A program made the translations under genes and the position numbers. The notes beneath the pieces were generated by a model, which ran no database searches, was not told the DNA's origin, and worked only from the letters and a program-made list of their open reading frames with translations. From positions 38,444 to 102,443 of the forward strand of contig JALHYA010000008.1 in the NCBI GenBank assembly GCA_022868165.1: a stretch of 64,000 nt of DNA. The letters are read 5' to 3'. Every line of letters begins with the position of its first letter. Position 1 is the stretch's first letter. Shown here piece by piece: positions 3,540 to 51,580 of the stretch. This stretch comes from Patescibacteria group bacterium (lineage in GTDB: Bacteria > Patescibacteriota > Microgenomatia > UBA8517).

Positions 3540-3622
3540 CGAGACCTGCCTTTGACTGAAATTATACATTAAGGAGCGTGACATATCAGCTATCTTGATA
3601 TAAAATTCAGCAGATATTGACA

Positions 3623-7381: not shown

Positions 7382-8368
7382 ATGGAAAAATGTAAAATAT
7401 GCTACGGCCAGCTAGTTAGAAAATATAAAAATCTTTTTGACAATAGACATGGATATCCAGGAAGATTTTATATTTATCAATGTAGAAACTGTGGATTTAT
7501 GGAAACTTTTCCGCAACTTCGAAGGAACAAATTAACTCAAATATATTCGAAGTATTATCCCCGACAAAATATCGATATAAAACAAGTAGCATTGGCAGGT
7601 AAAAATATTCCCTCCCCCACAGAAATTTACTGGAAAGGTCTGGCCACGTCTTGCCATTTTGCCACGAAAAAACTAGATAAAGTATTAGATATAGGTTCCG
7701 GAGTGGGATATTCCTTAGTCGAAATAAGAAAACTTGGCGGAGAGGCTTGGGGGATAGACCCCGACAACAATGCGAAGAAAATTGCACAAAGACTTAAACT
7801 AAAATTTCATAAAGCCTTCCTAGAAAATTGCCCTTTCCCAAAAAATTATTTCGACTTAATCACCGCATCACAAGTAATCGAGCATGAATCGAACCCTTTA
7901 GAATTCCTAAATTTATGCAAAGAATTTCTTAAAGATAAGGGCAGAATTATCTTAAGTTTTCCCAACACCGATTCCTTATATAGAAAAATTTGGGGCAAAA
8001 ATTGGCTCCACTGGCATATCCCCTATCATTTAAATCACTTTAATAAAAAATCCTTTAGGATTCTGGCGAGAAATTCCGGCCTAAAGATAGTCTCGATAAA
8101 AACAATAACCCCCAACCTTTGGACAATTCTGCAAATTAAGTCGCTTTTAAACAACCCCAAAGAAGGAACCCGAGATATGATGTGGAATGGAGTCGTACAA
8201 AATAGCAAGGATAGTGGAAAGAAAATATCCTTGCTTAATACATTACTTCAACGTCTTCTTCCGCAAATCGAGAAGTTATTGGTTACAAACAGATTTGTTG
8301 ATTTTTTGGGCCTGGGAGAAAGTTTTGTCATCGAACTTAAAGTAATAAAATTGAGGTCAAATATATAA
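7382..8368 (+). CDS. Class I SAM-dependent methyltransferase with N-terminal Cys4 zinc-ribbon
   Basis: N-terminal CKICYG...CRNCGF (CxxC...CxxC) followed by VLDIGSGVGYSL (motif I) and ...FDLITASQVIEH (motif II). This architecture resembles NDP-hexose C-methyltransferases of the TcaB9/TylC3 type. Confidence 0.6.
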   Translation: MEKCKICYGQLVRKYKNLFDNRHGYPGRFYIYQCRNCGFMETFPQLRRNKLTQIYSKYYPRQNIDIKQVALAGKNIPSPTEIYWKGLATSCHFATKKLDKVLDIGSGVGYSLVEIRKLGGEAWGIDPDNNAKKIAQRLKLKFHKAFLENCPFPKNYFDLITASQVIEHESNPLEFLNLCKEFLKDKGRIILSFPNTDSLYRKIWGKNWLHWHIPYHLNHFNKKSFRILARNSGLKIVSIKTITPNLWTILQIKSLLNNPKEGTRDMMWNGVVQNSKDSGKKISLLNTLLQRLLPQIEKLLVTNRFVDFLGLGESFVIELKVIKLRSNI

Positions 8369-8470
8369 CATCCTTAAGCAAACTAAAGTTTGCGGTTCCC
8401 TTTGAATGAGGATGATATATCAGGTTCAATTCCTCCACGAATAAAAATTCGTGGTATCCTTGAAACTGTT

Positions 8471-8668
8471 ATGAAAGTTATTATCGACACCAAGAAATGT
8501 ATTTTTTGCGGTGCCTGTGAAGAATTGACCCTAAAAGCAATAATTTCTCCCGGAGACAAACCGGCTTCCTTAAACCCTAAAGCCAACCTTAATGACCCGG
8601 TGACCAAAGAAAACATTAAAATGGCTGCCGAAACTTGTCCTCAACGAGCTATTAAAATAAAACCCTAA
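8471..8668 (+). CDS. Small 4Fe-4S ferredoxin
   Basis: MKVIIDTKKCIFCGACEE...AETCPQRAIKI gives a CxxCxxC...CP cluster-binding pattern in 65 aa. The track ORF 8390-8668 is probably the same gene with an over-extended N-terminus. Confidence 0.6.
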   Translation: MKVIIDTKKCIFCGACEELTLKAIISPGDKPASLNPKANLNDPVTKENIKMAAETCPQRAIKIKP

Positions 8669-8669
8669 A

Positions 8670-10136
8670 ATGAAACCTCGTCTAACTCTTGTCTATCCAT
8701 CTTATTCTAAAATGCTGGGTACCAACAAATACTATCGATATAATGTTTACGCCGGCCTAGGAAATATTCCCGAACGCCCACATATCGGCCTTGGCTATCT
8801 TTCTCAATATCTTCTCGACAAGGGCTATGACCACGATTTTATCGATATGAATCTTCTAAAATCATATTCTGAATTTAAAAAAAGAACCAAGCGTTATGCC
8901 CCCGATATTATCGGTCTTACGATGGTTACCCCCGGCTACCTTAAGGGCTACAAACTAATCAAAAGAATTAAAAAAGATTTCCCAAAAAGTAAGATAATAG
9001 TCGGCGGCCCCCACATCACCCTTGTTCTAACCAAATTATTCAAAGACTGCCCGGAAATTGATGTCGGGTTTGTTTCGGAAGCCGAGCAAAACTTAGTTGA
9101 TTACCTTAACCAAGGATGCCGCCCGGAAAAAATAAACGGAATTCTCTATAAAAAGGGTAAAAAGGTTTACTTTAATCCTCCGGTTCTAGAGCCGGACATT
9201 AACAAATTTCATTTTCCCAAATATGAAAAATTTGATCTCCCCCATTATTCCGGAATCGGTCTTTATACTTCCCGCGGCTGCCCTTTTAGGTGTATCTTTT
9301 GCAATGTCGAGTCATACAGACGCAAGGCCGTTCGAGTTCGCTCTGCAGAAAGTGTCTTGGCAGAAATAGATTACTGGTATAAAAAGGGGCAGTCCTTATT
9401 CCCAATTGAGGATGATAATTTTACCTTTAGCCGTCAGCGCACAATTGACCTTTGCAATGCAATTGAGAAACACCGTTACCCGAGCATTATTTTTGCTCTA
9501 GGCCAAGGGGTACGTGCCGATAAAGTGGATAAACGCCTACTCAAAAAAATGTACTCGGTAGGTTTTAAGTATATAACCATCCCCGCCGAAGCGGGCAACG
9601 ACAAAACTCTCCGCAGTCTTCGAAAAGGCGAAACAATAAAACAAATTGAATATGCTATTAAAAACGCTTGTGACTTGGGATTCGAGGTCAGAGTCTTATT
9701 CGTCGTTGGAGCGCCCGGAGAAACATGGAAAGACTTAGAAGATTCGTTTAAGTTGGCTCAGAAGTATCCCGTTATGTATTGTCGATTTAATAATCTGATG
9801 CCGATTCCGGGAACTGCGCTTTTCGATTGGGTTAAACAAGAAAAACTTTTTTTGCGTCCACCTGAAAAGTTTCTCAACAGCCACGACCTTGACTACACCG
9901 AACCTTTTTACCAGACACCCGAATTTAGCGCGGCCGAAAGAAAGCGGGCTATTATTGTTTCAGACCAAATTAACCAAAAGCTTTTTTATCGTTATCTCGC
10001 ACGCAAACTTTCGATTCTTGGGCCGTTCAAATATCCAACGGCTTTTATGGCCTCTCGTCGTTTCACACAATTGTTTTTAATTAAATATCCTTATCTTTAC
10101 AAAACCGCTCTACTTCTTCGCCGTAAAATGGCATAG
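8670..10136 (+). CDS. B12-binding-domain radical SAM enzyme (class B radical SAM)
   Basis: An N-terminal cobalamin-binding-like Rossmann segment (DIIGLTMVTPGY...KIIVGGPHITL) is followed by the canonical CPFRCIFC (CxxxCxxC) radical-SAM motif. Confidence 0.8.
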   Translation: MKPRLTLVYPSYSKMLGTNKYYRYNVYAGLGNIPERPHIGLGYLSQYLLDKGYDHDFIDMNLLKSYSEFKKRTKRYAPDIIGLTMVTPGYLKGYKLIKRIKKDFPKSKIIVGGPHITLVLTKLFKDCPEIDVGFVSEAEQNLVDYLNQGCRPEKINGILYKKGKKVYFNPPVLEPDINKFHFPKYEKFDLPHYSGIGLYTSRGCPFRCIFCNVESYRRKAVRVRSAESVLAEIDYWYKKGQSLFPIEDDNFTFSRQRTIDLCNAIEKHRYPSIIFALGQGVRADKVDKRLLKKMYSVGFKYITIPAEAGNDKTLRSLRKGETIKQIEYAIKNACDLGFEVRVLFVVGAPGETWKDLEDSFKLAQKYPVMYCRFNNLMPIPGTALFDWVKQEKLFLRPPEKFLNSHDLDYTEPFYQTPEFSAAERKRAIIVSDQINQKLFYRYLARKLSILGPFKYPTAFMASRRFTQLFLIKYPYLYKTALLLRRKMA

Positions 10137-10150
10137 TTGACTTATCTGCA

Positions 10151-10840
10151 TCAATAGCAGGCCTCAACAAATATTCTCTTTAATGGAAATTTTTCATTTA
10201 ACAAAAGACTCTCCGATTCTTTAATAAATTCTCCCGAGCCGCTTAAGTAAATTCCCGTATTGGAATAAGAAAATCCTTTGGCAATTTTTGAGATTGTGTT
10301 ATTTATATGCCCGGTTTCTCCCTTCCAATCTTTTTCGGGCTTAGATAAAATAATTTTAAATGAGAAATTTCGGTTGGCTTTTGCGTAAGACTTAAGTAAA
10401 TCTTCCAGCACAATATCTTTTTTAAATCTCAAACCCCAAAGAAAAAATATCTTCTTGTCTTTACTTTTTAAAAGCTCTTTAATCATGGGCAAAAAAGGTG
10501 CAATTCCACAACCTGTGGCTGCAAAAATATGATTGTCCAATCTTTTATTTAAGAGGAAATTCCCTCTTGGGTTTAACGTTTTGATGACTTGCCCCTTTTT
10601 AATAGATTTTAAATAGGTGGTCCCGGGACCTCCCGGCGAGATATCTACAAAGATATCCCAAAATGGAAGTTCTTCCGGAAGACTGGCGATGGAATAACAG
10701 CGAAAAATATTATCTTTAACTTTAATCGTCACAAATTGGCCAACTTTATATTTAAAATCCCGGTTTTTGGATTTTAATTTTATTAAGTTAAACTTCCCGT
10801 TGAGTACCTTATTCGATATTACCTCGTGTTCGGAAAACAT
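10151..10840 (-). CDS. Ferredoxin-NADP reductase-like FAD/NAD(P)-binding oxidoreductase
   Basis: FAD-binding RCYSIASLP (RxYS motif) and an NAD-binding AATGCGIAPFLPM region, as in FNR, PDR and AscD(E3)-type reductases. No fused ferredoxin domain. Confidence 0.65.
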   Translation of the reverse strand: MFSEHEVISNKVLNGKFNLIKLKSKNRDFKYKVGQFVTIKVKDNIFRCYSIASLPEELPFWDIFVDISPGGPGTTYLKSIKKGQVIKTLNPRGNFLLNKRLDNHIFAATGCGIAPFLPMIKELLKSKDKKIFFLWGLRFKKDIVLEDLLKSYAKANRNFSFKIILSKPEKDWKGETGHINNTISKIAKGFSYSNTGIYLSGSGEFIKESESLLLNEKFPLKRIFVEACY

Positions 10841-10894
10841 ATATTGACAATATCCGAATATAGATTAATGTCAATAGATGTACAGAATCTTTAA

Positions 10895-12079
10895 ATGAAA
10901 ACAATCTATTTTGACAACGCGGCAACAACTCCGGTCGATAAAAAAGTTATAAAAGAGATGTCTCCATTCTTCAATATCAGATATGGCAACTCATCTGAGT
11001 ACCATTCTCTAGGGCTAGATTCTAAAGCAGCAATTGAAGCCTCCAGGAGAAAAATTGCAAACTTTTTGGGATGTAAACCTTCGGAAATAATTTTTACATC
11101 CTCGGCGACCGAATCGATTAATCTTTCTCATAAGGGTTTAATTGAAAATATTCTCGAAGAGTTCAAGGGTTTGAAACTTAAGCCGCATATCATCACAACC
11201 CAAATCGAACATAAGGCGGTTTTGGAGACCTGTAGACACTTAGAAAAACTTGACTGGGCAGAAGTAACCTATCTTCCGGTTGACACCCACGGTCTAATAA
11301 AACTAAGTACGCTCAAAAAGATGATAAGGGAAAACACTGTTTTGGTATCTATTATGTATGTTAATAATGAGGTCGGGACAATTGAACCCGTTTCGGATAT
11401 AGGAAAATTGATTAAAAAAGAAAATCTTAAACGAAAACATAAGATACTTTTCCATACGGATGCGACTCAAGCAGTTCAATATCTGGATTGCAAAGTAAAT
11501 AAGCTTGGAGTCGATTTTCTTTCTTTAACTGGACATAAAATTTATGCCCCAAAGGGGATCGGAGCTCTTTTTGTCCGCAAGGGGATTTCCCTAATCCGCC
11601 AAATCGACGGAGGTGCACAGGAAAATGGTTTGAGATCAAGCACGGAAAATGTCCCCTACATCGTTGCTCTGGGAGCAGCCATAGAGCAAATCAAAAAACA
11701 AAAATCTCGTGCAAACGTCAAAAAGAACCGCGATTTCTTAATAAAACAGGTTTTGCAAATCCCCGGAGTAATTCTTACGGGGCACCCCAAATCGCGGGCA
11801 CCACACATTGCGTCTTTTATTATTAAGGGTATCGAAGGAGAATCTGTAGTTCTTAGACTTTCTGAAGAGGGAATCTATGCATCATCCGGTTCTGCTTGCA
11901 CCTCTGCAAGTCTAGAACCTTCGCATGTATTAACGGCGATGGGCTTTATCCCCGAAGAAAGCCATGGTTCAATTAGACTTTCCTTGGGAAAAAATTCTAC
12001 AAAAAGTGAGGTCTTATTTTTAATGTCTAAATTGCCGAAAATAATTGAGGATTTAAGAAAAATGTCCCCACTAAACTAA
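10895..12079 (+). CDS. nifS: Cysteine desulfurase (NifS/IscS family, PLP-dependent)
   Basis: N-terminal IYFDNAATTPVDKKV, PLP-lysine context SLTGHKIYAPKGIGALFVRKG and an active-site Cys loop SSGSACTSASLEPSHVL. Confidence 0.85.
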   Translation: MKTIYFDNAATTPVDKKVIKEMSPFFNIRYGNSSEYHSLGLDSKAAIEASRRKIANFLGCKPSEIIFTSSATESINLSHKGLIENILEEFKGLKLKPHIITTQIEHKAVLETCRHLEKLDWAEVTYLPVDTHGLIKLSTLKKMIRENTVLVSIMYVNNEVGTIEPVSDIGKLIKKENLKRKHKILFHTDATQAVQYLDCKVNKLGVDFLSLTGHKIYAPKGIGALFVRKGISLIRQIDGGAQENGLRSSTENVPYIVALGAAIEQIKKQKSRANVKKNRDFLIKQVLQIPGVILTGHPKSRAPHIASFIIKGIEGESVVLRLSEEGIYASSGSACTSASLEPSHVLTAMGFIPEESHGSIRLSLGKNSTKSEVLFLMSKLPKIIEDLRKMSPLN

Positions 12080-12083
12080 ACCT

Positions 12084-12500
12084 ATGGAAGATTTTTCTGA
12101 ATATTATTCGCCTCTTGTTTTGAAACACGTTTCCAAGCCTCAAAATATGGGAAAAATAAAAAACCCGGATGGGGTTGCAATGGTTGGTAACCCTGTCTGC
12201 GGAGATATTATGAAATATTATATTAAGGTTGAGAACAAAAAAGGAACTCTCTATATAAAAGATATTAAATTTCAGACTCTCGGATGCGGGGCGGCTATCG
12301 CAACTTCAAGCATCCTAACCACTTTAGTCAAAGGAAAATCACTTAATGAGGCGTTGAAAGTTACTAAAGGCACTATAGTGAAAGTTCTGGGTGGGCTACC
12401 GACCGCCAAGATACATTGTTCTGTTCTAGCAGACGAGTGTTTTAATCTGGCCGTTAAAAACTACAAACAGAAGTTAAAAACCAAACGTCAGCGAAAATAA
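12084..12500 (+). CDS. nifU: Fe-S cluster assembly scaffold (NifU/IscU-like)
   Basis: Three conserved Cys in IscU spacing (GNPVCGDIM..., TLGCGAAIATSS, KIHCSVLADE). Directly downstream of nifS. Confidence 0.75.
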   Translation: MEDFSEYYSPLVLKHVSKPQNMGKIKNPDGVAMVGNPVCGDIMKYYIKVENKKGTLYIKDIKFQTLGCGAAIATSSILTTLVKGKSLNEALKVTKGTIVKVLGGLPTAKIHCSVLADECFNLAVKNYKQKLKTKRQRK

Positions 12501-12506
12501 CTGGAG

Positions 12507-13604
12507 CTACTTTTCAAAAAATTTCTTGATCGCCCTTACAACCTCATCAACTTGCGCTTGCGTCATCATAATATGGCAAGGCAAAGAAACAACACTTTTA
12601 GCCAACATTCTGCAAACAGGTATTTTTGCTTTTCCGTAATCTTTTTTCAGAAAAGGTTGGTCCGGGATTGGAACCGGGAAATGAATTAAAGTAGGAATCC
12701 CCTTAGTGGCCAAATATTTTCTCAGCTCGTCTCTTTTAGAAGTTTTTATCACAAATTGATGAAAATTCGAATCGTCCCATTTTTCAGGAAGTATTAGCTT
12801 TAAACCTTTAATATTTTTAAGTTTCTCTATATACCTTTTTGCAATTTTTCTCTTTTTCCTATTATCTTGGTTCAGATATTTTAATTTGACTCTTAAAAGT
12901 GTGGCCTGTAGTTCATCCAATCTGCTATTCAAGCCATATCTTAGGTGTACATATTTAGACTCTTGTCCGTAGTCGCGAATTTCGGCACAGATTTTCGCAA
13001 CCTTTTTGTTGTTAGTAACAATAGCACCAGCATCTCCGAAGGCTCCCAGATTTTTAGTCGGATAGAAACTAAAGCACCCGACATCTCCAAAAGTTCCCAA
13101 TATTTTCCCCTTGCATATTGAGCCGTGAGCTTGGGCTGTGTCTTCTATCAAAAATAGGTCGTGTTTCTTACAAATTTCCTTAATCTTATCTATCTCTGCC
13201 GGCTGCCCATAAAGATGCACCGGCATTACAGCTTTGGTTTTCTTTGTAATAGCTTTTTCTATTAAATCGGCGTTTATTTGGGCCACTTCGTTGGCATCTA
13301 CAAAGACCGGTTTAGCTCCAGCTGCGATTATTGAAAGCGTAGTCGCTACCGCCGAAAGAGGTGTTGTTATTACTTCATCGCCCTTGCCTATGCCTAAAGC
13401 CATTAAGGATATTTGAAGCGCTTCCAAACCATTTCCGACCCCTATGCAATATTTGACTTTCAGATACTCTGAAAATTCTCCTTCAAATTTTTTGACCTCT
13501 TCTCCTAAAATGTACCAACCCGAGTGTAAAACTCTTCGAAAAGCTTTGTCATATTCGCTAAACCTTAGCTCTGCCTCTTTTGGAAAATCGTTAAACTTTA
13601 CCAT
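12507..13604 (-). CDS. DegT/DnrJ/EryC1/StrS-family PLP-dependent nucleotide-sugar aminotransferase
   Basis: Motifs ...CIGVGNGLEALQ..., ...FSFYPTKNLGAFGDAGAIVT... and a 365 aa length typical of sugar aminotransferases (ArnB/WecE/FdtB/PseC family). Confidence 0.85.
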   Translation of the reverse strand: MVKFNDFPKEAELRFSEYDKAFRRVLHSGWYILGEEVKKFEGEFSEYLKVKYCIGVGNGLEALQISLMALGIGKGDEVITTPLSAVATTLSIIAAGAKPVFVDANEVAQINADLIEKAITKKTKAVMPVHLYGQPAEIDKIKEICKKHDLFLIEDTAQAHGSICKGKILGTFGDVGCFSFYPTKNLGAFGDAGAIVTNNKKVAKICAEIRDYGQESKYVHLRYGLNSRLDELQATLLRVKLKYLNQDNRKKRKIAKRYIEKLKNIKGLKLILPEKWDDSNFHQFVIKTSKRDELRKYLATKGIPTLIHFPVPIPDQPFLKKDYGKAKIPVCRMLAKSVVSLPCHIMMTQAQVDEVVRAIKKFFEK

Positions 13605-14028
13605 GTGTTTTTACCCTCTTCTTCAACATATATCTAAACTGTTCATAATCTCGAATATAATCCCCGGGGTCAAATATTTTAGAGGCCAAGACCAGCAGTA
13701 TTGTGTTCTTATCCATATCCAACATCTCGTGCCAAACCATAGGTTCTAACATCATTCCATCCTCAGGGTTTGTCAAAACAATTTCTTCCCTATCCTTTCC
13801 ATCATCGACAACCATTCTTACCTTTCCTTTTATACAAAACAAAATTTGTCGTGTCGTTTTGTGGACGTGTTTTCCCCTTGGAAGGCCCGGCAATGCGGAA
13901 AAAATATAATAAATTCTTTTTATCTCAAAGGGGATTTGGTCCGGATATTGGGCGAAACACAAAAAAGCATCATCGTATATTTTCGGTACTTTAATAATAT
14001 GAATTAGACTTTTTTTGTTTTTGGCCAT
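13591..14028 (-). CDS. fdtA: dTDP-4-dehydro-6-deoxyhexose 3,4-ketoisomerase (FdtA/QdtA, WxcM-like cupin)
   Basis: KRIYYIFSALPGLPRGKHVHKTTRQ...MVWHEM...LVLASKIFDPGDYIRDYEQF closely matches FdtA motifs (KRVYYIF, PRGxHAHK, AVWHEM, LASDxYDxxDYIR). Confidence 0.8.
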   Translation of the reverse strand: MAKNKKSLIHIIKVPKIYDDAFLCFAQYPDQIPFEIKRIYYIFSALPGLPRGKHVHKTTRQILFCIKGKVRMVVDDGKDREEIVLTNPEDGMMLEPMVWHEMLDMDKNTILLVLASKIFDPGDYIRDYEQFRYMLKKRVKTHGKV

Positions 14029-18914: not shown

Positions 18915-19561
18915 TATTTCTTTGCTACCAGAATTAGATATGTACAATTCACGCCACTTGCCACAACTCTCTCTCTTTTCGACAATATATACTGGGTAAT
19001 TTGAAATAGAACGGCCACGGGATCTTGAATAAATTTAGGAAGACGAAGAACTATTCCGTCTTGTAAAAGCTGAAGTCCTGTACTTCTTAAACCCATAATG
19101 TCGTGGAGGTCTATTACTTTTAAGCCCGAAGCTGTCACTATTTTTCTCAGACCATCAGGAGTCCATCGCCAAAAGTCAGCTGGATCCGGGTGATACATCC
19201 AAAAACCGTGCGTTGTTAGAAACAAAAGACCATTTTTCTTCAAAACCCGCTTGCTTTCTCTTAAATACAACGCGGGGTCGGGCACATGTTCCAATACCTG
19301 CGTCGACAAAACAATATCGACGGTACTACCGGATACCGGCAAGGTTCCGTTTCTTTTTAAGTGTCGATTTGCATTTTTGTTCCGATTTAAGTCGACCTCT
19401 ATATAATTTGTCGAGTTCCCCCGAAAAATACTTTTATATCGTTTCTCTCCACATCCGTAATCCACAATCGTTAGGCCTTTTTTATTTTCCAGAAACTTGA
19501 TATAAAATTTTTCGACTTCTTCTCGAAGCCATCTTGCCGCATTAAATCTTTGTATTTCCAT
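18914..19561 (-). CDS. Class I SAM-dependent methyltransferase (Methyltransf_11-like)
   Basis: TIVDYGCGEKRY (motif I) and VDIVLSTQVLEHVPDP (motif II). Confidence 0.7.
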   Translation of the reverse strand: MEIQRFNAARWLREEVEKFYIKFLENKKGLTIVDYGCGEKRYKSIFRGNSTNYIEVDLNRNKNANRHLKRNGTLPVSGSTVDIVLSTQVLEHVPDPALYLRESKRVLKKNGLLFLTTHGFWMYHPDPADFWRWTPDGLRKIVTASGLKVIDLHDIMGLRSTGLQLLQDGIVLRLPKFIQDPVAVLFQITQYILSKRERVVASGVNCTYLILVAKK

Positions 19562-21470
19562 TTAGTTTTTTGTAATCGAAGAAATATAAATTTGGCAATA
19601 CTTCTTGCGAGTTGCAAACTATTTCGTTATTCAGTTTTCTAAGGTAGAAAGCATTGTCATCTTCATATGGAAAGCGTTTTACCACCTTAGTTCTGTCAGA
19701 AATACATGTATTCGGAGTTGCCGTCCAAAATTCCATTTTCTTTTCTATTGCGGCAGGAATAACCTCGTCTATCTTTAACCCCTCAAGAGGTGGATTTTCA
19801 TAATAGCAGTTGGTCATAAAAGAACGCATCATACCGTCGTTCTCATACCAAATCATATCCGGATCAAATCGGGCTAAAGGAACTGCTTTTCCGTCAGGAG
19901 GATTTTCACACCAGAAAGTGGCCTCAGCCATTCGGGGTACAATATATCTTACCCAATCATAAATATTTGCTCTGCCTATTGAATAGTTAATTTCATTCCA
20001 ATTTAAAAACTTCAAGCTGTTTGTTTCTTTCACAACATCGACATAATTAAAAAGCACCGTTATGGATAGAAAAACTAATGCAAAATTTTTCATTAGATTA
20101 AGAAAATCATCAGAGAAATCCGCGAAGAACTGAACTGATATAAGGACCATTAATAAAAGTTGCAAATGTTGGTGGTATCTGTCCAAAAAGCCAGAAAAAT
20201 ACTTGAGCATTAAAAGCTCAAGTAAAAATGACGCTATAAGAAAAAGGCTAATTAGCTTTACCTTTCGGTTTTTATTGAGAAGTACTATTAAAGGCGAAGC
20301 GAAAACCATAATGTGCAAAAATTTATTGCCCGAAAGAAGCGTTTTTATAATTGGATAAAAGTTTTGCATATTAACTTTTGTTGTCCAGCCGCTAAAAAAT
20401 CCGGAACCCCAAGGACAATCCGCCGCATATCTACCAGCGCAATGAAAGATGAAGGGATAAACTGGGTTGCCGTAGAAATACAAGTTTTTAAGGTACCAAT
20501 ATCCTCCAAAAATAGTTAACAAAAGGAAAGATTTAATTATTGTTCTTCTATTAATTATTTTTATGTATTTTTTTCGGAACCAGAAAACTATGAAGGAGGA
20601 AACCAATAGAAAAGAAGCAAACGCTGTCAAAACCGTATATTTTGTACCAAACGCCAATGCCCAAAAAAGCATGGATAATAACAAAGATTCTCGTTTTGGC
20701 TTCAGCAAAAATGCAATTCCGTAAACCAGACCAATTAGAAGAAAAGAGAAAGTCCCGACATCAACGAAGCCTAAAGTTGAAACAAAAACTATTCCCTGTC
20801 GCAAGCTTAAAAAGATAAAAACAAACAGAAAGCCGACTAGATAGTTGAAGTGGGCTCTCAGCATTCGAAAAGCAAATAGTAAACTTGTCGCCAAAATCAA
20901 AAAATGGAAGAGCCTTGCTATGGAATAGGTTCTAGTTAGAGAAAAAATAAGTATAAAAAACGTGTCCAGATTCCGAGGTAGGTTCATATATAAACCACCG
21001 TTAAATTTCCAAAAAACACCAAGGTCTCTCACAAGCGCAGAGGGAGAAATAAAATGATATGCCATTTCGTCTGAATAATATGGTGGCAGCGAAGCTCTAA
21101 CAAAGACTGCGGGCAATAAAAAGGAAATTAATAAAATCGGAATTCTTACTTCCCAAAGTGCCTTGCCAAGATTAACTATCTCTTTGTTTTTAAGATAATT
21201 AGGAATCGAAATTAAAGAAAGCGCTACAACACTAATAATTAATGGTGTTCTCTGGGGAAGAACAATAAAACCCAATAGAAACCAGATAAAAACAAATACC
21301 CCTAAACCAATAATCCAATTTATTATTCTCGACTCATCATCCTTTTCGCGTCTTATCAAGATCTTTTTTACAAAGGTTCCGAGAATATCTAAAAATATAA
21401 AAAGAATCAAAAAATAAGAAAGCGTTTGAAAATTAAGAGGCTGAAAAAAATCAGAAAGTTTTAATAGCAT
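19542..21470 (-). CDS. Large polytopic membrane protein, GT-C-like, with Cys-rich C-terminal extracytoplasmic domain
   Basis: About 13 predicted TM helices. The loop PPYYSDEMAYHFISP is a DE-containing motif reminiscent of PMT_2/ArnT catalytic loops. The roughly 230 aa C-terminal soluble domain has 6 Cys. Confidence 0.4.
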   Translation of the reverse strand: MLLKLSDFFQPLNFQTLSYFLILFIFLDILGTFVKKILIRREKDDESRIINWIIGLGVFVFIWFLLGFIVLPQRTPLIISVVALSLISIPNYLKNKEIVNLGKALWEVRIPILLISFLLPAVFVRASLPPYYSDEMAYHFISPSALVRDLGVFWKFNGGLYMNLPRNLDTFFILIFSLTRTYSIARLFHFLILATSLLFAFRMLRAHFNYLVGFLFVFIFLSLRQGIVFVSTLGFVDVGTFSFLLIGLVYGIAFLLKPKRESLLLSMLFWALAFGTKYTVLTAFASFLLVSSFIVFWFRKKYIKIINRRTIIKSFLLLTIFGGYWYLKNLYFYGNPVYPFIFHCAGRYAADCPWGSGFFSGWTTKVNMQNFYPIIKTLLSGNKFLHIMVFASPLIVLLNKNRKVKLISLFLIASFLLELLMLKYFSGFLDRYHQHLQLLLMVLISVQFFADFSDDFLNLMKNFALVFLSITVLFNYVDVVKETNSLKFLNWNEINYSIGRANIYDWVRYIVPRMAEATFWCENPPDGKAVPLARFDPDMIWYENDGMMRSFMTNCYYENPPLEGLKIDEVIPAAIEKKMEFWTATPNTCISDRTKVVKRFPYEDDNAFYLRKLNNEIVCNSQEVLPNLYFFDYKKLNGNTKI

Positions 21471-21532
21471 AGCTGTCCGTATTTTTGATTCTGCTGTATT
21501 ATATCAACTTTTACTTGTATTATTGGTTTATT

Positions 21533-22087: not shown

Positions 22088-22097
22088 GTATGCTTCT

Positions 22098-22841: not shown

Positions 22842-22847
22842 TTTATT

Positions 22848-23654
22848 TTAAGAATCTTTAAAAGTGTCGATATATTTTCCAAACAACCAAACCATTATCC
22901 CATTTATTTTTCTTTTCTTGAGCTCGCCGAAAAGTTGTCTGTAAGAATTCCATTTGTTTTTCAAATAGGAATCTTTTAGAGAGGTACTCTTTTTGTGATA
23001 TCTGTATCTGACCAATCTTTTAGGTACGATAACTAACATACCCCTATCCATAACCTCTAACGCAAACTTCCAGTCTTCCCCGCCGAAGTTATAATTTGAG
23101 TCAAACTTTAACTCTTTTATTTTGTCTGCCCTGAAAACCTCGTGCGATAGCTGACAGAGATAAAAAGCGCTGCGGGGCATAGTTTTGCGGTGGAAAAGAT
23201 AGAAAAGTAATTGAAATATGTCTCTAATAGCTGAGAGGATATAAATTTTTATTTTGAAGCCCGCAGGCATATCTTTATCAAAAAGCGGGGACGACATCGC
23301 AACCGAGCCAACATAATTCCCTTTTGAAATGTTTTTGATTGATTGCCTCAAAAAATCCTTTTTCCAAATGTCATCGGCATCCAAAAACACCACAAAGTCC
23401 GTATTGATAAAATTAAGAGCTTGATTGCGCGCCGGTCCGGACTTTAAATTCTTGCGATTTCTGATAACTTTAACCTGGGGCAAACTCTTTTTTATTATCG
23501 GCCCCAAAGGTTCCGGCGAACAGTCGTCTACAACGATAATTTTAATGGAGTAATTTCCTTTTTGGCTATAGACACTCCTTAGCGTTTCCAGAAGAAGCTC
23601 AGGTTTTGAATAGGCAGGTATTATTACGGTAACGCTAATCTTATCTTTTGGCAT
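22848..23654 (-). CDS. Family 2 glycosyltransferase
   Basis: ISVTVIIPAYSKPELLLETLRSVYSQ...IIVVDDCSPEP and FLDADDIW (DxD). Confidence 0.75.
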   Translation of the reverse strand: MPKDKISVTVIIPAYSKPELLLETLRSVYSQKGNYSIKIIVVDDCSPEPLGPIIKKSLPQVKVIRNRKNLKSGPARNQALNFINTDFVVFLDADDIWKKDFLRQSIKNISKGNYVGSVAMSSPLFDKDMPAGFKIKIYILSAIRDIFQLLFYLFHRKTMPRSAFYLCQLSHEVFRADKIKELKFDSNYNFGGEDWKFALEVMDRGMLVIVPKRLVRYRYHKKSTSLKDSYLKNKWNSYRQLFGELKKRKINGIMVWLFGKYIDTFKDS

Positions 23655-24444
23655 AAATATATCCGATTTTATTTTCTATGTCGTTGTATCGGTGAGTCAG
23701 TCTAAATCCGTTATCTTTCAAGATATTAATTAAATCGTGATGATTTTGTTTGGAATTCATCTCGTGAAACTCCAAGGCAACTGTCTTTACTCTTTTCAAA
23801 ATATAACCGGGGCAGTAAGCCAAAATGTCATATTCCGCTCCCTCGCAGTCGATTTTCAGATAGTTACAAACTTTAATTTTGTTGTCTAAAAAGATATCCT
23901 CCAGAGTAACTGTTTTTATTGTTTCAAATTTTCTTTCCTCGCGGCTCTTATAGATGCTGCTCAAGCCCGTTTTCCCCAACTCATACAATTTAATCTTTCC
24001 CTTACCTTTATATACCGCCAGTTTAAAAGGTATTATCTGTCTTTCCATTCCATTTAAAAGAATATTTTCATTAAGTTGGTCAAAAGCCATGCTTCCCGGT
24101 TCATAACTATATATTTTTGCCTTTTGCATCTTAAGTGCTGCTAGAATCGAAAAAGCTCCAATGTTGGCTCCAATATCTATTACAGTAGCTTGACGCAGAG
24201 AGGATTTAATTTTGTATTCGTTTGATGCAAAAACTTCTTTTATTATCCACGCATCCATAAAATCTTTCGCTTTAAACCTTAGACCATTTCTTAATCTTAA
24301 AATCCGCCCCTTTTTAAAACTTATTACACCAAATGCCCCCAGGGGTACAGTTGGCCAATTTTCAATAATATTTATTAGTTTAAACGAGGAAATAAAATAC
24401 TTTAGTAATCTATACGCCTTTGGGTAAGATTTCGGTTGGTTCAT
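23641..24444 (-). CDS. FkbM-family methyltransferase
   Basis: VIDIGANIGAFSILAA...IYSYEPGSMAFDQLNENI...KLAVYKGKGKIKLY. Confidence 0.75.
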   Translation of the reverse strand: MNQPKSYPKAYRLLKYFISSFKLINIIENWPTVPLGAFGVISFKKGRILRLRNGLRFKAKDFMDAWIIKEVFASNEYKIKSSLRQATVIDIGANIGAFSILAALKMQKAKIYSYEPGSMAFDQLNENILLNGMERQIIPFKLAVYKGKGKIKLYELGKTGLSSIYKSREERKFETIKTVTLEDIFLDNKIKVCNYLKIDCEGAEYDILAYCPGYILKRVKTVALEFHEMNSKQNHHDLINILKDNGFRLTHRYNDIENKIGYIYAKR

Positions 24445-24448
24445 CTAT

Positions 24449-25534
24449 TTATTTTAAATCCGGCAACCGATTTACCAAGTGAGTCTTGATTGTTTCTATC
24501 AGAAAAACCCATATAAATGTAATTGCATCAATCGACGATAATAAAATTTTCGTACCCAAATGCTCATCGGGCAAAAAAAGAATTATCAAAATCGTAAAAA
24601 AGAGAAGAAAAATTGTAATTGGAACGAGGGGAACAGAATTCAGAAATGTGGAAATAAGATTGGGTTTCCCCTCTATTGCGAAAGAAAAGTATTCCAACGC
24701 CAAAAGGCTCAGAAAAACTACAAAGAAGAAGAGTAGGAAAAAGCTGGTAAATCCAAAACTATAAGGAAGAGATATAAATGCCAAAACCAAAAAAAGAAGC
24801 ATTGTTAAAACCAAAAATATTGGCTTAAGAAGCAAAATTGCTTTAAGGTGCCGCCAGCCGTCGGCCCATCTTGCCAAATGCGGGGGTCTTCCCCTCTTAT
24901 CTTTGTAAAAGTAAATTGGGACCTCCATATATTTTCCGTGTTTAATCGCAGTTTTTAATAAAAGCTCGCTCGCCCACTCCATTCCGGCAGATTTCATATT
25001 TAGCAGTTTATAAAAAGACTTTTTGACCATTCGCATTCCGGAATTACAATCCGAAGTCGGTATCCGGTAGGCAATGCGGATAAGAAATGTCAAAACCGGA
25101 GTCCCTAAATATCTGTGAAGAATTGGCATTGCCCCCCTCGATATTGTTCCTCTTAACCTGGAGCCCAATACCAAGTCGGGTTTTTCTTCGATTGTGTTTT
25201 TAAACTTCTTTAGGTTTTTAAAAGGATAGCTTAAGTCCGCATCGGCAAAAACAACAAACTCTCCCCTACTCTTCATTATTCCCCAGTGAAGTGCTGCACC
25301 ATATCCTTTAATAGGAACGTTGATTACCCTTATTTCCTTTATCTTTTTTAGAATTTCCCATGAGCCATCCGTACTTCCGTTATCAGCAACTACTATTTCC
25401 CAATCTTTCGGGAAAAACTTCTTGGCATTTTTTTTGGCGTCTGCCACCGCTCTCGCAATTGTTTTCTTCTCATTAAGGCAGGGAATAAGCAAGCTTATGG
25501 TTGGCCGCTTTGACATAGCCGAATTATACAACAA
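24449..25534 (-). CDS. Membrane-anchored GT2, polyprenyl-phosphate glycosyltransferase-like (GtrB/ArnC/DPM1-like)
   Basis: GT2 N-terminal domain (ISLLIPCLNEKK...EIVVADNGSTDGS, ADADLSYP) followed by a C-terminal TM segment cluster (about 3-4 helices), the architecture of polyprenol-P sugar synthases. Confidence 0.65.
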   Translation of the reverse strand: MLYNSAMSKRPTISLLIPCLNEKKTIARAVADAKKNAKKFFPKDWEIVVADNGSTDGSWEILKKIKEIRVINVPIKGYGAALHWGIMKSRGEFVVFADADLSYPFKNLKKFKNTIEEKPDLVLGSRLRGTISRGAMPILHRYLGTPVLTFLIRIAYRIPTSDCNSGMRMVKKSFYKLLNMKSAGMEWASELLLKTAIKHGKYMEVPIYFYKDKRGRPPHLARWADGWRHLKAILLLKPIFLVLTMLLFLVLAFISLPYSFGFTSFFLLFFFVVFLSLLALEYFSFAIEGKPNLISTFLNSVPLVPITIFLLFFTILIILFLPDEHLGTKILLSSIDAITFIWVFLIETIKTHLVNRLPDLK

Positions 25535-25579
25535 AAGGCTAAAGCCTGAAGTTTTCTTGAATGCTGTTATAAGCGAAGC

Positions 25580-25610
25580 TTGAAACAGCTTATTTAAAAG
25601 CTGTTATAAT
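25580..25610 (+). promoter_or_regulatory. Candidate sigma70-type promoter (-35 TTGAAA, 19-nt spacer, -10 TATAAT) overlapped by nested inverted repeats
   Basis: TTGAAA at 25580-25585 and TATAAT at 25605-25610, with the ATG at 25631. Inverted repeats GCTGTT(25563-68)/AACAGC(25584-89) and AACAGCTT(25584-91)/AAGCTGTT(25598-605) overlap the -35/-10 elements. Confidence 0.35.
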
Positions 25611-25630
25611 GTGCTACTTTTGAAATTTTA

Positions 25631-26866
25631 ATGCATAAAAATCGCCTTAAAAATTATTATCTGGAGGATACAAAGAAACTCATAAAATTTCTTGTCCCCA
25701 AAGATGCCAAAACATTAATCATGGAAAAGAGCAATTTTAGACCAAAGGGCAAATACGATTTTATTGTGGTCAACGAACTAATTGGGGATATCGAAGATGT
25801 CCAAGAATTTTTCTCGAGAATAAGAACACTTTGCGACAACAAGGCGCGAATCTTGGTGACTTATTACAATTTTCTCTGGAGGCCAATAATCAAGTTTGCA
25901 ACCTTTATGGGCTGGAGAAAAGACACCAGCGAACAAAATTGGCTTGACAACAACGATATAGCTAATCTTCTTGAACTCGCCGGTTTGGAAATCGTCACCA
26001 GTCAAAAAAGACTCCTATTCCCAATCGAAATTCCTATTCTGTCCCAATTTGTCAATCGCTGGATAGCTCCGCTTCCTGTAATAAATACTTTTTGTCTTAA
26101 AACATGGACGCTGGCAAAATTAAAACAAGAAAAAAGGAAAGAATATAGCGTTTCGATAGTAGTCCCGGCCAGAAATGAAAAGGGTAATATCCCCCATATA
26201 GCGAAGTCTATTCCTAAAGTTGGCACTCGACGGGAAGTAATTTTTATAGAAGGTCATTCTCAGGACAATACATGGGACGAGATTCAGAAACTTTTTAAAT
26301 CGAAGGCTGCGAAAGGTGTATCAATCAAGGCCTTTCAACAGAAGGGTGTGGGCAAGGCAGATGCTGTGCGAATGGGATTTGATAAAGCCAAGGGGGACAT
26401 TTTAATGATTTTAGATGCCGACCTTACCGTAGCCCCAAAAGAATTGCCAAAATTCTACAACGTGCTTTCTAATGGACAGGCAGAATTTGCGAACGGCTCG
26501 AGACTGGTCTACCCCATGGAAAAGGAAGCAATGAACACCCTCAATATTTTGGGAAACCGAACTTTTAGCTGGTTATTTACTTGGATTCTTGGCCAAAGAT
26601 TCAAGGATACTCTCTGCGGAACAAAAGCCCTATTTCGAAAGGATTATTTGAAGATAGTCAAAAATAGAGGTTTCTTTGGAGATTTCGACCCCTTCGGAGA
26701 TTTTGATCTAATATTCGGGGCAATTAAACAAAACCTCAAAATCGCGGAAATACCCATACGCTACAGGGAAAGGGTCTATGGAATGACCAATATACGACGG
26801 TTCAGACACGGCTGGTTACTGCTGAAAATGACTTGGTTTGCTTATAAAAAATTTAATATCCTTTAG
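25631..26866 (+). CDS. Two-domain protein: N-terminal methyltransferase-like (motif-I-less) domain fused to GT2 glycosyltransferase
   Basis: C-terminal GT2 (VSIVVPARNEKGNIPH..., LDADLT, DPM1-like). The N-terminal roughly 170 aa (DFIVVNELIGDIEDVQEFF...ARILVTYY) looks like the post-motif-I half of a class I MTase. Confidence 0.6.
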   Translation: MHKNRLKNYYLEDTKKLIKFLVPKDAKTLIMEKSNFRPKGKYDFIVVNELIGDIEDVQEFFSRIRTLCDNKARILVTYYNFLWRPIIKFATFMGWRKDTSEQNWLDNNDIANLLELAGLEIVTSQKRLLFPIEIPILSQFVNRWIAPLPVINTFCLKTWTLAKLKQEKRKEYSVSIVVPARNEKGNIPHIAKSIPKVGTRREVIFIEGHSQDNTWDEIQKLFKSKAAKGVSIKAFQQKGVGKADAVRMGFDKAKGDILMILDADLTVAPKELPKFYNVLSNGQAEFANGSRLVYPMEKEAMNTLNILGNRTFSWLFTWILGQRFKDTLCGTKALFRKDYLKIVKNRGFFGDFDPFGDFDLIFGAIKQNLKIAEIPIRYRERVYGMTNIRRFRHGWLLLKMTWFAYKKFNIL

Positions 26867-36338: not shown

Positions 36339-36341
36339 TCA

Positions 36342-43209: not shown

Positions 43210-43233
43210 AACTTCATAAGTTTCAAGCTTTGC

Positions 43234-49876: not shown

Positions 49877-49877
49877 A

Positions 49878-51560: not shown

Positions 51561-51580
51561 AAACCTTATCTAAGATGATA

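What the first reader, a model, noticed from the sequence alone, without database searches (positions are those of the whole stretch)
8390..12500. Self-contained redox/Fe-S module (ferredoxin, B12-radical-SAM, FNR-like reductase, NifS, NifU) embedded in a nucleotide-sugar pathway
A 65-aa 4Fe-4S ferredoxin is translationally juxtaposed (stop 8668, start 8670) to a B12-binding radical-SAM enzyme (CPFRCIFC motif). It is followed by a convergent FNR-like flavoprotein and a cysteine desulfurase/IscU pair. Immediately next door are an FdtA ketoisomerase and a DegT aminotransferase. This looks like an NAD(P)H to FNR to ferredoxin to cobalamin/radical-SAM electron chain, with dedicated Fe-S assembly, serving a sugar-modifying radical reaction (C-methylation, epimerisation or deoxygenation of a dTDP-6-deoxyhexose intermediate). 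Class-B radical-SAM enzymes acting on nucleotide sugars within O-antigen- or glycoprotein-type loci are essentially uncharacterised. In a small genome the NifS/NifU here could instead be the only housekeeping copies, which would itself be notable for where they sit.
Basis: partly seen in the sequence, partly recalled or inferred. Interest (0 to 1): 0.75.

Follow-up and report, generated by a model that had tools for sequence, protein, structure and literature searches.

The report
Ferredoxin–radical SAM pair beside Fe-S operon
All five redox and iron-sulfur genes are really there, but they form two separate units: a conserved ferredoxin plus B12-type radical-SAM pair that travels with surface-sugar genes, and a reductase plus NifS/NifU iron-sulfur assembly unit found across the lineage, which sit side by side only in this organism's closest relatives.

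Summary
Window 8471-12500 encodes a 65-aa single-cluster ferredoxin, a 488-aa B12-domain radical-SAM enzyme starting 1 nt after the ferredoxin stop, a convergent 229-aa FNR-type flavoprotein, NifS and an IscU-type NifU. FdtA and DegT lie next door, inside a 64-kb glycan superlocus of a Patescibacteria (Microgenomates/Gottesmanbacteria-like) MAG.

Comparative genomics splits the module into two units.

1. **Ferredoxin + rSAM pair.** They are adjacent in 9 of 11 ortholog loci, against 0 of 11 and 1 of 144 for more distant relatives. The ancestral neighbours are a polyprenyl-P-hexose-synthase-like GT2, an FkbM methyltransferase and roughly 630-aa membrane proteins, not FdtA/DegT.
2. **FNR<->(ArsR-type Cys-rich regulator)-NifS-NifU.** This divergent unit has a conserved palindromic operator. 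It occurs across Patescibacteria in unrelated neighbourhoods, always near a small ferredoxin and various radical-SAM genes.

The two units share a contig only in the ≥77%-identity subclade (5/5). They do so in none of 12 more distant orthologs on contigs of at least 15 kb.

The rSAM belongs to no named subfamily and is equidistant from OxsB, MgmA, AprD4, CysS, TsrM and TokK. An NAD(P)H→FNR→Fdx→rSAM chain is plausible. "Dedicated" Fe-S assembly and a dTDP-3-keto-6-deoxyhexose substrate are not supported.

The parts
8471..8668 (+). 65-aa single-cluster [4Fe-4S]-type ferredoxin (CxxCxxC...CP); proposed electron donor to the rSAM
   Evidence: Pfam Fer4/Fer4_15. Sequence read. Orthologs are adjacent to the rSAM in 9 of 11 loci. 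Same family as the ferredoxins next to FNR in other Patescibacteria.
8670..10136 (+). 488-aa class-B-type (B12-binding domain) radical SAM enzyme of an uncharacterised subfamily
   Evidence: Pfam B12-binding + Radical_SAM. No NCBIfam equivalog reached. About 41 orthologs at 57-80% identity, then a drop to ≤47%. AF2 model with pLDDT 78, equidistant from OxsB, MgmA, AprD4, CysS, TsrM and TokK.
10151..10840 (-). 229-aa FNR-family flavoprotein (FAD_binding_6 + NAD_binding_1, no Fe-S domain)
   Evidence: Only 52 homolog clusters, those with a source name labelled Patescibacteria/Parcubacteria. Divergent from NifS-NifU in all six contexts examined.
10844..10874 (.). Palindrome TTGACA-N19-TGTCAA in the FNR<->NifS intergenic region; candidate operator and overlapping divergent promoters
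   Evidence: Unique in the window. Conserved in sequence and position in L002, L162, L165, L168, L169 and L170. One sigma-70-like match on the FNR side.
10895..12079 (+). NifS/IscS-type (MisS-like) cysteine desulfurase
   Evidence: Aminotran_5 260 bits. TIGR03402 448 bits, below the 530.75 cutoff. GHK and SSGSAC motifs. At least 120 ortholog clusters at 58-71% identity.
12084..12500 (+). IscU-type single-domain NifU (MisU-like) Fe-S scaffold
   Evidence: NifU_N 136 bits. TIGR03419 153 bits, below the 187.9 cutoff. Three conserved Cys.
12507..13604 (-). DegT-family sugar aminotransferase; a neighbour not conserved with the rSAM
   Evidence: Pfam 372 bits. Orthologous copy only in L162, 64% identity.
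13591..14028 (-). FdtA-type (WxcM C-terminal) ketoisomerase; a neighbour not conserved with the rSAM
   Evidence: Pfam 136 bits. Found only in L162 among all loci held at that point.
7382..8368 (+). Class-I SAM methyltransferase directly upstream of the ferredoxin
   Evidence: Methyltransf_23 89 bits. 59%-identity ortholog at the same position in L002.
24449..25534 (-). GT2 (polyprenyl-P-hexose-synthase-like). In more distant genomes its ortholog is the immediate divergent neighbour of the rSAM.
   Evidence: 54-63% identical to the GT2 next to the rSAM in L001, L004/L083, L084, L085 and L164. Best NCBIfam resemblances are AglJ, Dol-P-hexose transferase and PpgS, all below cutoff.
23641..24444 (-). 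FkbM-type methyltransferase, part of the ancestral rSAM neighbourhood
   Evidence: Methyltransf_21. 34-40% identical to the MT about 1.9 kb upstream of the rSAM in five loci.
22848..23654 (-). GT2 (about 270 aa), part of the ancestral rSAM neighbourhood
25631..26866 (+). Methyltransferase-GT2 fusion, part of the ancestral rSAM neighbourhood
   Evidence: 57-60% identical to genes 1.7-4.9 kb from the rSAM in L164 and L004/L083. Pfam.
19542..21470 (-). 642-aa protein without a Pfam family, inferred to be a polytopic membrane protein from its hydrophobic sequence. Its homologs lie in tandem next to rSAM orthologs.
   Evidence: 33-51% identical to 1-3 copies per locus in L001, L004/L083, L084, L163 and L164. 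No Pfam or NCBIfam hit. Translation read.

Best explanation
The interval is a lineage-specific juxtaposition of two units.

Unit A is a two-gene cassette: a small [4Fe-4S] ferredoxin translationally coupled to a class-B-type radical SAM enzyme. It belongs to the surface-glycan machinery of Microgenomates. Inferred: the ferredoxin delivers the low-potential electron needed for reductive SAM cleavage, and possibly for keeping cobalamin reduced. Also inferred: the enzyme performs a radical tailoring step on a sugar that is made or carried by the neighbouring polyprenyl-P-hexose-synthase-like GT2, FkbM methyltransferase and large membrane proteins. The most likely chemistry is methylation at an unactivated carbon.

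Unit B is FNR<->(ArsR-type, five-Cys regulator)-NifS-NifU with a conserved palindromic operator. This is the organism's minimal (MIS/NIF-type) Fe-S assembly operon, co-regulated with an NAD(P)H-dependent reductase. It is most likely housekeeping rather than dedicated. In this window the regulator gene has been lost and the operator kept.

Inferred electron flow: NAD(P)H → FNR → small ferredoxin → radical SAM cluster, and probably also → NifU-bound cluster assembly. Placing unit A next to unit B is a recent rearrangement within one subclade. It fits a wider Patescibacterial tendency to keep ferredoxin and radical SAM genes near the FNR/NifS/NifU unit.
For: Shown:
- Domains and motifs of all five proteins.
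- Fdx-rSAM adjacency holds in 9 of 11 ortholog loci despite changes of side and strand. It is absent in 155 more distant relatives except one.
- Every rSAM ortholog context whose genes were annotated is a glycan locus. So is the closest outgroup at 47% identity.
- The block of roughly 630-aa proteins, FkbM MT, GT2(355 aa)<->rSAM and GT2(270 aa) is conserved. Its orthologs lie at window 19542-26866.
- FNR, NifS and NifU lie within 10 kb of the rSAM only in L002 and L162. Contig-length matching gives 5/5 for the ≥77%-identity clade and 0/12 for orthologs at ≤68% identity on contigs ≥15 kb.
- The divergent FNR<->NifS-NifU arrangement is present in all six contexts sampled, which span 46-61% FNR identity. 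Each also has a 60-65-aa ferredoxin within 6.5 kb and at least one rSAM within 10 kb.
- Those rSAMs are different paralog families, 26-36% identical.
- The ferredoxins next to the rSAM and next to FNR form one family, 45-54% identical across the two settings.
- The operator palindrome and the Cys-rich ArsR regulator are conserved.
- NifS orthologs are abundant across Microgenomates.

From the literature: two-gene NifS/IscU-like pairs of non-diazotrophs are classed as MIS, and their electron donors are stated to be unknown (PMC13066941).
Against: - No experiment or structure links FNR, ferredoxin and rSAM physically.
- FNR accompanies only about a quarter of close NifS orthologs on long contigs (7 of 29). 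It is absent from the long contigs that carry most rSAM orthologs, so neither partner strictly needs it nearby.
- No control set of NifS loci without FNR could be inspected, so the enrichment of rSAM genes around the FNR unit is not quantified.
- Sole-copy (housekeeping) status of NifS/NifU is untested, because only 64 kb of the genome is visible.
- Cobalamin binding is unproven. AprD4 has the same fold without cobalamin, and no cobalamin-supply genes were seen in the window.
- The methylation assignment rests only on what most characterised class-B enzymes do.
Confidence: 0.55

Rival explanations
1. The five genes form one dedicated, self-contained module. NifS/NifU build clusters specifically for the ferredoxin and rSAM, FNR feeds them, and the rSAM modifies the dTDP-3-keto/3-amino-6-deoxyhexose made by the adjacent FdtA/DegT.
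For: The genes are contiguous and tightly packed. The same arrangement, including DegT and in L162 also FdtA, recurs in the two closest relatives L002 and L162.
Against: - rSAM orthologs at 58-68% identity have no FNR, NifS, NifU or FdtA within 10 kb, nor FNR on the same long contigs.
- The FNR-NifS-NifU unit occurs without this rSAM, next to ribosomal, RimK or pilus genes.
- NifS orthologs are widespread in Microgenomates.
- The conserved partners of the rSAM are GT2, FkbM MT and membrane proteins, not FdtA/DegT.
Confidence: 0.1
2. The adjacency is incidental. FNR works only for Fe-S assembly, supplying electrons or Fe(II) to NifS/NifU as Fdx/FdxR do in ISC, or acting as a Fre-like flavin or ferric reductase. 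It has no role in rSAM activation, and the rSAM's ferredoxin is reduced by some other system.
For: - FNR's invariant partner is NifS-NifU, with a shared operator.
- Most rSAM orthologs lie far from any FNR.
- FNR resembles Fre-type NAD(P)H-flavin reductase as much as the reductase halves of oxygenases.
Against: - All six FNR contexts sampled also carry a small ferredoxin and rSAM genes of differing families nearby.
- In L168 and L169 the ferredoxin gene starts 3 nt after the end of the FNR gene.
- FNR is present in only a subset of NifS-bearing genomes. That is unexpected if it were a core part of Fe-S assembly.
Confidence: 0.2
3. The rSAM does not act on a sugar at all. It modifies the polyprenyl carrier, another lipid or a protein, as the class-B enzymes HpnP/HpnR, lipid-cyclising enzymes or RiPP methylases do. 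It merely sits in a cell-envelope locus.
For: NCBIfam scores are equally weak for RiPP (ApyD), hopanoid (HpnJ), BchE, P-methylase and lipid families, at 80-118 bits. The outgroup locus L172 contains an LPG_synthase_TM gene.
Against: The immediate conserved neighbours are glycosyltransferases and sugar-type methyltransferases in every ortholog locus. No precursor-peptide or lipid-biosynthesis genes were seen there.
Confidence: 0.12

Closest known systems
Class B (cobalamin-dependent) radical SAM enzymes: OxsB, TsrM, TokK, CysS, MgmA, and by established knowledge the sugar C-methylases GenK and Fom3
   Same: N-terminal Rossmann B12-binding domain, CxxxCxxC radical SAM barrel and C-terminal helical domain. 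Foldseek E 1e-14 to 2e-20, TM about 0.6 normalised to the query. Pfam B12-binding and Radical_SAM are both above cutoff.
   Different: Only 13-19% identity to any solved member. It scores far below every named NCBIfam subfamily cutoff. It has a dedicated, adjacent mini-ferredoxin and sits in a glycan-assembly locus rather than a natural-product cluster. Cobalamin use and the reaction are unknown.
AprD4, a radical SAM 1,2-diol dehydratase acting on an aminoglycoside sugar
   Same: Equally close in fold (E 1.5e-19, TMq 0.65). It acts on a sugar and needs a partner reductase.
   Different: By established knowledge AprD4 does not use cobalamin. Identity is 15%, and the sequence match covers only the rSAM core.
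Two-gene minimal Fe-S systems (MIS MisS/MisU; NIF-like NifS/NifU of Helicobacter and clostridia)
   Same: A class-I cysteine desulfurase followed by a single-domain IscU-type scaffold, with no chaperones or carriers. Classed as MIS in PMC13066941.
   Different: Here the pair is divergently coupled to an FNR-type reductase and, in relatives, to a five-Cys ArsR-type regulator with a palindromic operator. Scores fall below the TIGR03402 and TIGR03419 equivalog cutoffs.
ISC ferredoxin/ferredoxin reductase, and the E. coli Fpr-flavodoxin system that activates radical SAM enzymes
   Same: An NAD(P)H-dependent FNR-family flavoprotein plus a small one-electron carrier that could serve Fe-S assembly and/or rSAM reduction. 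Inference from established knowledge and PMC13066941.
   Different: The carrier is a 65-aa [4Fe-4S]-type ferredoxin, not a [2Fe-2S] Fdx or a flavodoxin. No functional data exist.
E3 / AscD (CDP-6-deoxy-delta-3,4-glucoseen reductase) of 3,6-dideoxyhexose pathways
   Same: An FNR-fold reductase found in sugar loci. One source (JGI) gives this name to two homologs.
   Different: By established knowledge E3 carries a plant-type [2Fe-2S] domain and partners the E1 dehydrase. This protein has no Fe-S domain, and its conserved partner is NifS/NifU.

Membership tests
Class B (B12-binding) radical SAM | CxxxCxxC motif binding the SAM-cleaving [4Fe-4S] cluster | tested here: met
   CPFRCIFC at residues 204-211. 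C204, C208 and C211 are invariant in 24 orthologs. Radical_SAM 78.9 bits against a 29.5 cutoff.
Class B (B12-binding) radical SAM | N-terminal Rossmann-type cobalamin-binding domain | tested here: met
   PF02310 52.1 bits against a 32.1 cutoff. GGPH at 112-115 is invariant. The fold matches OxsB, TsrM and TokK over both domains.
Class B (B12-binding) radical SAM | Actual cobalamin binding and use | not testable with these tools
   AprD4 has the same architecture without cobalamin (established knowledge). This needs reconstitution and spectroscopy.
Named class-B subfamilies (ApyD, HpnJ, BchE, P-methylases, BzaD, MJ_1487, MgmA type, HpnR, KedN5) | Score at or above the curated NCBIfam cutoff | tested here: not met
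   The best are 117.9 bits (ApyD, cutoff 750), 115.8 (HpnJ, 577.6) and 113.2 (BchE, 481). None is close to its cutoff.
Single-cluster [4Fe-4S] ferredoxin | CxxCxxC...CP ligand set in a protein of about 60 aa | tested here: met
   C10, C13, C16 and C55 followed by Pro. Fer4 24.8 bits against 21.1, and Fer4_15 23.0 against 22.4. The motif is conserved in 13 homologs.
FNR-family flavoprotein reductase | FAD_binding_6 + NAD_binding_1 domains with RxYS, GxGxAP and a C-terminal aromatic residue | tested here: met
   41.9 and 56.7 bits. RCYS at 47, GCGIAP at 110, terminal Tyr at 229.
FNR-family flavoprotein reductase | Membership of a named equivalog (Fre, Fpr, MmoC, BenC and others) | tested here: not met
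   The best is 89.6 bits (MmoC C-terminal half, cutoff 500). Fre-type PRK08051 scores 70.5 against 230.
E3 / AscD sugar-deoxygenation reductase | Fused plant-type [2Fe-2S] ferredoxin domain and an E1 (RfbH-type) partner | tested here: not met
   No Fer2 domain. The neighbouring DegT scores 169 bits against a 423 cutoff for RfbH.
MIS/NIF-type two-gene Fe-S assembly system | Class-I cysteine desulfurase with PLP-Lys and a catalytic Cys loop, directly followed by an IscU-type scaffold with three Cys | tested here: met
   GHK at 213-215 and SSGSAC at 330-335. NifU Cys at 39, 68 and 112. The genes are 4 nt apart.
MIS/NIF-type two-gene Fe-S assembly system | Equivalog scores for TIGR03402 (NifS) and TIGR03419 (NifU_clost) | tested here: not met
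   448.2 against 530.75, and 153.3 against 187.9. These are the best-scoring models but fall below cutoff.
MIS/NIF-type two-gene Fe-S assembly system | It is the only Fe-S assembly system of the genome (housekeeping) | not testable with these tools
   Only 64 kb of the genome is visible, and no SUF or ISC genes occur in it. Indirect support comes from lineage-wide conservation.
FdtA/FdtB dTDP-3-amino-3,6-dideoxyhexose pathway as the source of the rSAM substrate | Co-occurrence of FdtA and its aminotransferase with the rSAM across genomes | tested here: not met
   FdtA was found only in L162 among the loci held. An orthologous DegT occurs only in L162.

The most novel reading that the evidence does not exclude
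In Patescibacteria, an FNR-type reductase and a 60-65-aa [4Fe-4S] ferredoxin form the so-far unidentified electron-donor arm of the minimal MIS (NifS/IscU-like) Fe-S system. The same arm would be the general reductant for an expanded, diversified set of class-B radical SAM enzymes that tailor surface glycans, for example by radical C-methylation of lipid-linked sugars. All of this would be controlled by a five-Cys ArsR-type Fe-S-sensing repressor acting on a conserved palindrome.
Probability: 0.25. Interest if true: 0.7.

Novelty: new variant of a known kind. Interest (0 to 1): 0.5.

Why it matters
1. **Radical chemistry on glycans.** No class-B radical SAM enzyme has been characterised in a glycan-assembly locus; literature searches here found none. 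A conserved ferredoxin-rSAM cassette next to polyprenyl-P-sugar synthase-like GT2s points to radical chemistry on the surface sugars of ultra-small episymbiotic bacteria. Their envelopes are poorly understood.

2. **Electron donor of minimal Fe-S systems.** The electron donor of the minimal MIS Fe-S system is explicitly listed as unknown (PMC13066941). A reductase co-regulated with NifS/NifU, plus a neighbouring ferredoxin, gives a concrete candidate that can be tested.

3. **Annotation practice.** Tight gene clustering in reduced genomes should not be read as a dedicated pathway without checking synteny.

Tried and rejected
- **Subfamily assignment of the rSAM.** NCBIfam, PDB sequence search and fold search gave no nearest characterised enzyme. 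All are equidistant.
- **E3/AscD-type reading of FNR.** Rejected: no [2Fe-2S] domain, and its conserved partner is NifS/NifU.
- **Pattern scans of genome and metagenome collections.** These returned mostly distant paralogs at 26-41% identity and only six close ortholog loci. They were useful mainly as a negative control for ferredoxin adjacency.
- **Promoter and terminator scan of 8200-12700.** Counts were no higher than in shuffled sequence. Only the palindrome-associated site was of interest.
- **tRNA and Rfam scans of the window.** Nothing found.
- **Literature searches** for class-B rSAMs in CPR, glycan or O-antigen loci, and for Fe-S systems of CPR. Nothing specific.
- **Sole-copy status of NifS/NifU.** Not testable; context look-ups and collection scans were exhausted.
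- **Control set of NifS loci lacking FNR.** Could not be inspected for the same reason.

Full report
**1. Observation**

The window is about 38% GC and has no tRNA or Rfam hits. Nearly every ORF scanned belongs to glycan assembly. These include Wzm/Wzt, many GT2/GT4 enzymes, PMT-type GT-C proteins, about ten methyltransferases and a carbamoyltransferase.

The five genes of the finding are present as described:

| Gene | Coordinates | Key features |
|---|---|---|
| Ferredoxin | 8471-8668 (+), 65 aa | CIFCGAC...CP |
| Radical SAM | 8670-10136 (+), 488 aa | starts 1 nt after the ferredoxin stop; B12-binding + Radical_SAM; CPFRCIFC |
| FNR-type flavoprotein | 10151-10840 (-), 229 aa | RCYS, GCGIAP, C-terminal Tyr; 14 nt between the convergent stops |
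| NifS | 10895-12079 (+) | GHK and SSGSAC motifs |
| NifU (IscU-type) | 12084-12500 (+) | three Cys |

DegT and FdtA follow on the minus strand. Each of the five occurs once in the window. The proteins are deposited as MCJ7805524.1 and MCJ7805525.1, "Patescibacteria group bacterium", on a 123-kb contig. The closest named relative of the rSAM is from a Gottesmanbacteria MAG.

**2. The radical SAM enzyme**

It matches no named NCBIfam subfamily. The best scores are about 115 bits, against cutoffs of 480-750 (ApyD, HpnJ, BchE). RiPP, hopanoid, P-methylase, BzaD and lipid models all score alike. PDB sequence matches are weak and mostly confined to the radical SAM core.

An AlphaFold model built from 24 orthologs has mean pLDDT 78 and pTM 0.77. 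It shows the class-B architecture. Foldseek places it equidistant from OxsB, MgmA, AprD4, CysS, TsrM and TokK, with E 1e-14 to 2e-20 and 13-19% identity.

Homolog searching finds about 41 ortholog clusters at 57-80% identity. There is then a sharp drop to ≤47% in a large family of roughly 480-aa proteins from many phyla.

**3. What travels with the rSAM**

I examined eleven ortholog loci; L001=L003 and L004≈L083 are duplicates.

A CxxCxxC...CP mini-ferredoxin lies next to the rSAM in nine of them:
- upstream on the same strand in L001/L003, L002 and L162, as in the window itself;
- directly downstream on the same strand in L004, L083, L084 and L085;
- downstream on the opposite strand in L164.

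The P0018 contig, for which no DNA could be fetched, also has it upstream. Of the other two loci, L163 has an rSAM-SPASM gene in that position instead, and L086 is cut at the contig end.

The same test is negative in 0 of 11 relatives at 33-55% identity and positive in only 1 of 144 below 33%. The pairing is therefore real, clade-specific and kept through rearrangements.

An all-against-all comparison of neighbours shows a conserved block in the 58-68%-identity orthologs:
- one to three membrane proteins of about 630 aa,
- an FkbM methyltransferase,
- a GT2 of about 355 aa, divergent from the rSAM,
- the rSAM with its ferredoxin,
- a GT2 of about 270 aa,
- often an MT-GT2 fusion.

In the window, the orthologs of all of these lie 10-17 kb away, at 19542-26866. 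The 355-aa GT2 is 54-63% identical to its counterparts. It most resembles polyprenyl-phosphate hexose synthases, though below their cutoffs.

The closest outgroup, at 47% identity, also sits among GT2, GT4 and epimerase genes plus three other rSAMs. FdtA was found with the rSAM only in L162, and an orthologous DegT likewise.

**4. What travels with FNR, NifS and NifU**

tblastn finds FNR, NifS and NifU within 10 kb of the rSAM only in L002 and L162, the 77-78%-identity relatives.

I also matched contig lengths between the rSAM and FNR hit lists. The ≥77%-identity subclade shares a contig with FNR in 5 of 5 cases on informative contigs. Orthologs at ≤68% identity on contigs ≥15 kb do so in 0 of 12.

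The FNR family is small, with 52 clusters; those that carry a source name are labelled Patescibacteria or Parcubacteria. In every context examined, FNR is divergent from NifS-NifU. These contexts span 46-61% FNR identity and include Parcubacteria. The surroundings differ otherwise: ribosomal L11-L12 and RimK genes in L165/L170, pilus genes in L166.

The intergenic region carries a conserved palindrome, TTGACA-N19-TGTCAA. In all relatives an ArsR-type HTH of about 86 aa with five conserved Cys sits between it and NifS. The gene caller had missed this HTH in L162 and L165. The window has lost that gene, with no match anywhere in 64 kb, but keeps the palindrome at 10844-10874.

NifS orthologs at 58-71% identity are very numerous in Microgenomates. 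Only 7 of 29 on contigs ≥20 kb share a contig with an FNR-family member. Two contigs of about 864 kb have NifS but no FNR hit. FNR is thus an accessory of the Fe-S unit in a subset of genomes.

**5. Links between the two units**

All six FNR contexts have a 60-65-aa ferredoxin within 6.5 kb. In L168 and L169 the ferredoxin gene starts 3 nt after the end of the FNR gene. All six also have at least one rSAM within 10 kb, usually among glycan genes.

Those rSAMs are different families. In Microgenomates they are class-B-like paralogs, 26-36% identical to each other and to the window enzyme. In Parcubacteria they are unrelated rSAMs beside an HxsD gene.

The ferredoxins beside rSAM orthologs are 45-54% identical to those near FNR, so they form one family. 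This gives a transitive genomic link, FNR–Fdx–rSAM. It is the main support for the electron chain, which otherwise remains an inference.

I could not inspect NifS loci without FNR as a control, because the look-ups were exhausted.

**6. Interpretation**

The best reading is two units brought together in one subclade (confidence about 0.55).

- **Unit A:** ferredoxin plus class-B-type rSAM, a glycan-tailoring cassette. Radical methylation of a sugar is the most likely chemistry by analogy with most class-B enzymes. The substrate may be lipid-linked, given the polyprenyl-P-hexose-synthase-like neighbour. Both points are inferred.
- **Unit B:** the lineage's minimal MIS/NIF-type Fe-S operon with a co-regulated reductase, most likely housekeeping.

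A recent review states that the electron donors of MIS systems are unknown (PMC13066941). That makes FNR plus the small ferredoxin a concrete candidate.

The rivals are:
- a fully dedicated module acting on the FdtA/DegT product (0.1), contradicted by synteny;
- incidental adjacency, with FNR serving only Fe-S assembly (0.2);
- a non-sugar substrate (0.12).

**7. Novelty and score**

The components are all of known kinds. Three things are new:
- an uncharacterised class-B rSAM subfamily with a dedicated ferredoxin in glycan loci;
- an FNR/ArsR/NifS/NifU operon architecture with a conserved operator;
- their recurrent co-location with rSAM genes in Patescibacteria.

I rate this a new variant of a known kind, interest 0.5. 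It is testable and relevant to two open questions, but it has no surprising mechanism yet and carries important untested assumptions: cobalamin use, sole-copy status and electron transfer.

Noticed in passing
window 10841-10894 (palindrome 10844-10874); compare L162 9513-9807 and L165 9704-9961: In all relatives an ArsR-type HTH of about 86 aa with five conserved Cys (C-x2-C-x5-C ... C-x2/3-C) lies between FNR and NifS, behind a conserved TTGACA-N19-TGTCAA palindrome. The window keeps the palindrome but has no such gene anywhere in its 64 kb. This may be a deleted Fe-S-sensing autoregulator. The gene caller missed the gene in L162 and L165.
   Followed up: partly
window 41554-53287 (minus strand): Tandem array of seven GT-C-type membrane proteins of 550-570 aa. 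Five are PMT/PMT_2 paralogs, 28-34% identical to each other. Two PTPS_related paralogs (46564-49915) are interleaved. Further PMT_2 genes lie at 1929-3623, 34108-35553 and 56058-57497.
   Followed up: partly
L002 11466-12896 (minus strand): In the 77%-identity relative, a second class-B-like rSAM (476 aa, 29% identical to the first) is inserted between the rSAM and FNR. It has no counterpart in the window.
   Followed up: partly
L001 17351-20422, the P0018 contig (no DNA fetched), L165 11650-13987, L170 11676-15441: Genes resembling a nucleotide-heptose pathway recur near the Fdx/rSAM or FNR units in relatives: SIS isomerase, GHMP kinase (in L165 and L170 fused to an NTP-transferase) and a HAD phosphatase. 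They were not seen among the window ORFs that were scanned.
   Followed up: no
L166/L167 10867-16705: In Parcubacteria the FNR-HTH-NifS-NifU unit and a 65-aa ferredoxin lie beside an HxsD-family gene and four radical SAM genes. These are unrelated to the window rSAM.
   Followed up: no
window 35550-38469 (minus strand): A GT2-DUF2304-GT2-unknown (376 aa) block matches the block 3.8-6.7 kb downstream of the rSAM in L164. In the P0018 contig, DUF2304 directly precedes the ferredoxin-rSAM pair.
   Followed up: partly
window 32380-34107 and 40285-41550 (minus strand): A carbamoyltransferase (NodU/CmcH type) and a flavin amine-oxidase-family protein are embedded among the glycosyltransferases. This suggests carbamoylated or otherwise unusual sugars.
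   Followed up: no
window 1-64000: Many of the longest ORFs begin at TTG or GTG, and several neighbouring ORFs overlap by 30-180 nt (for example 59199-60110 with 59932-61497). The true start codons of a number of genes are therefore uncertain.
   Followed up: no
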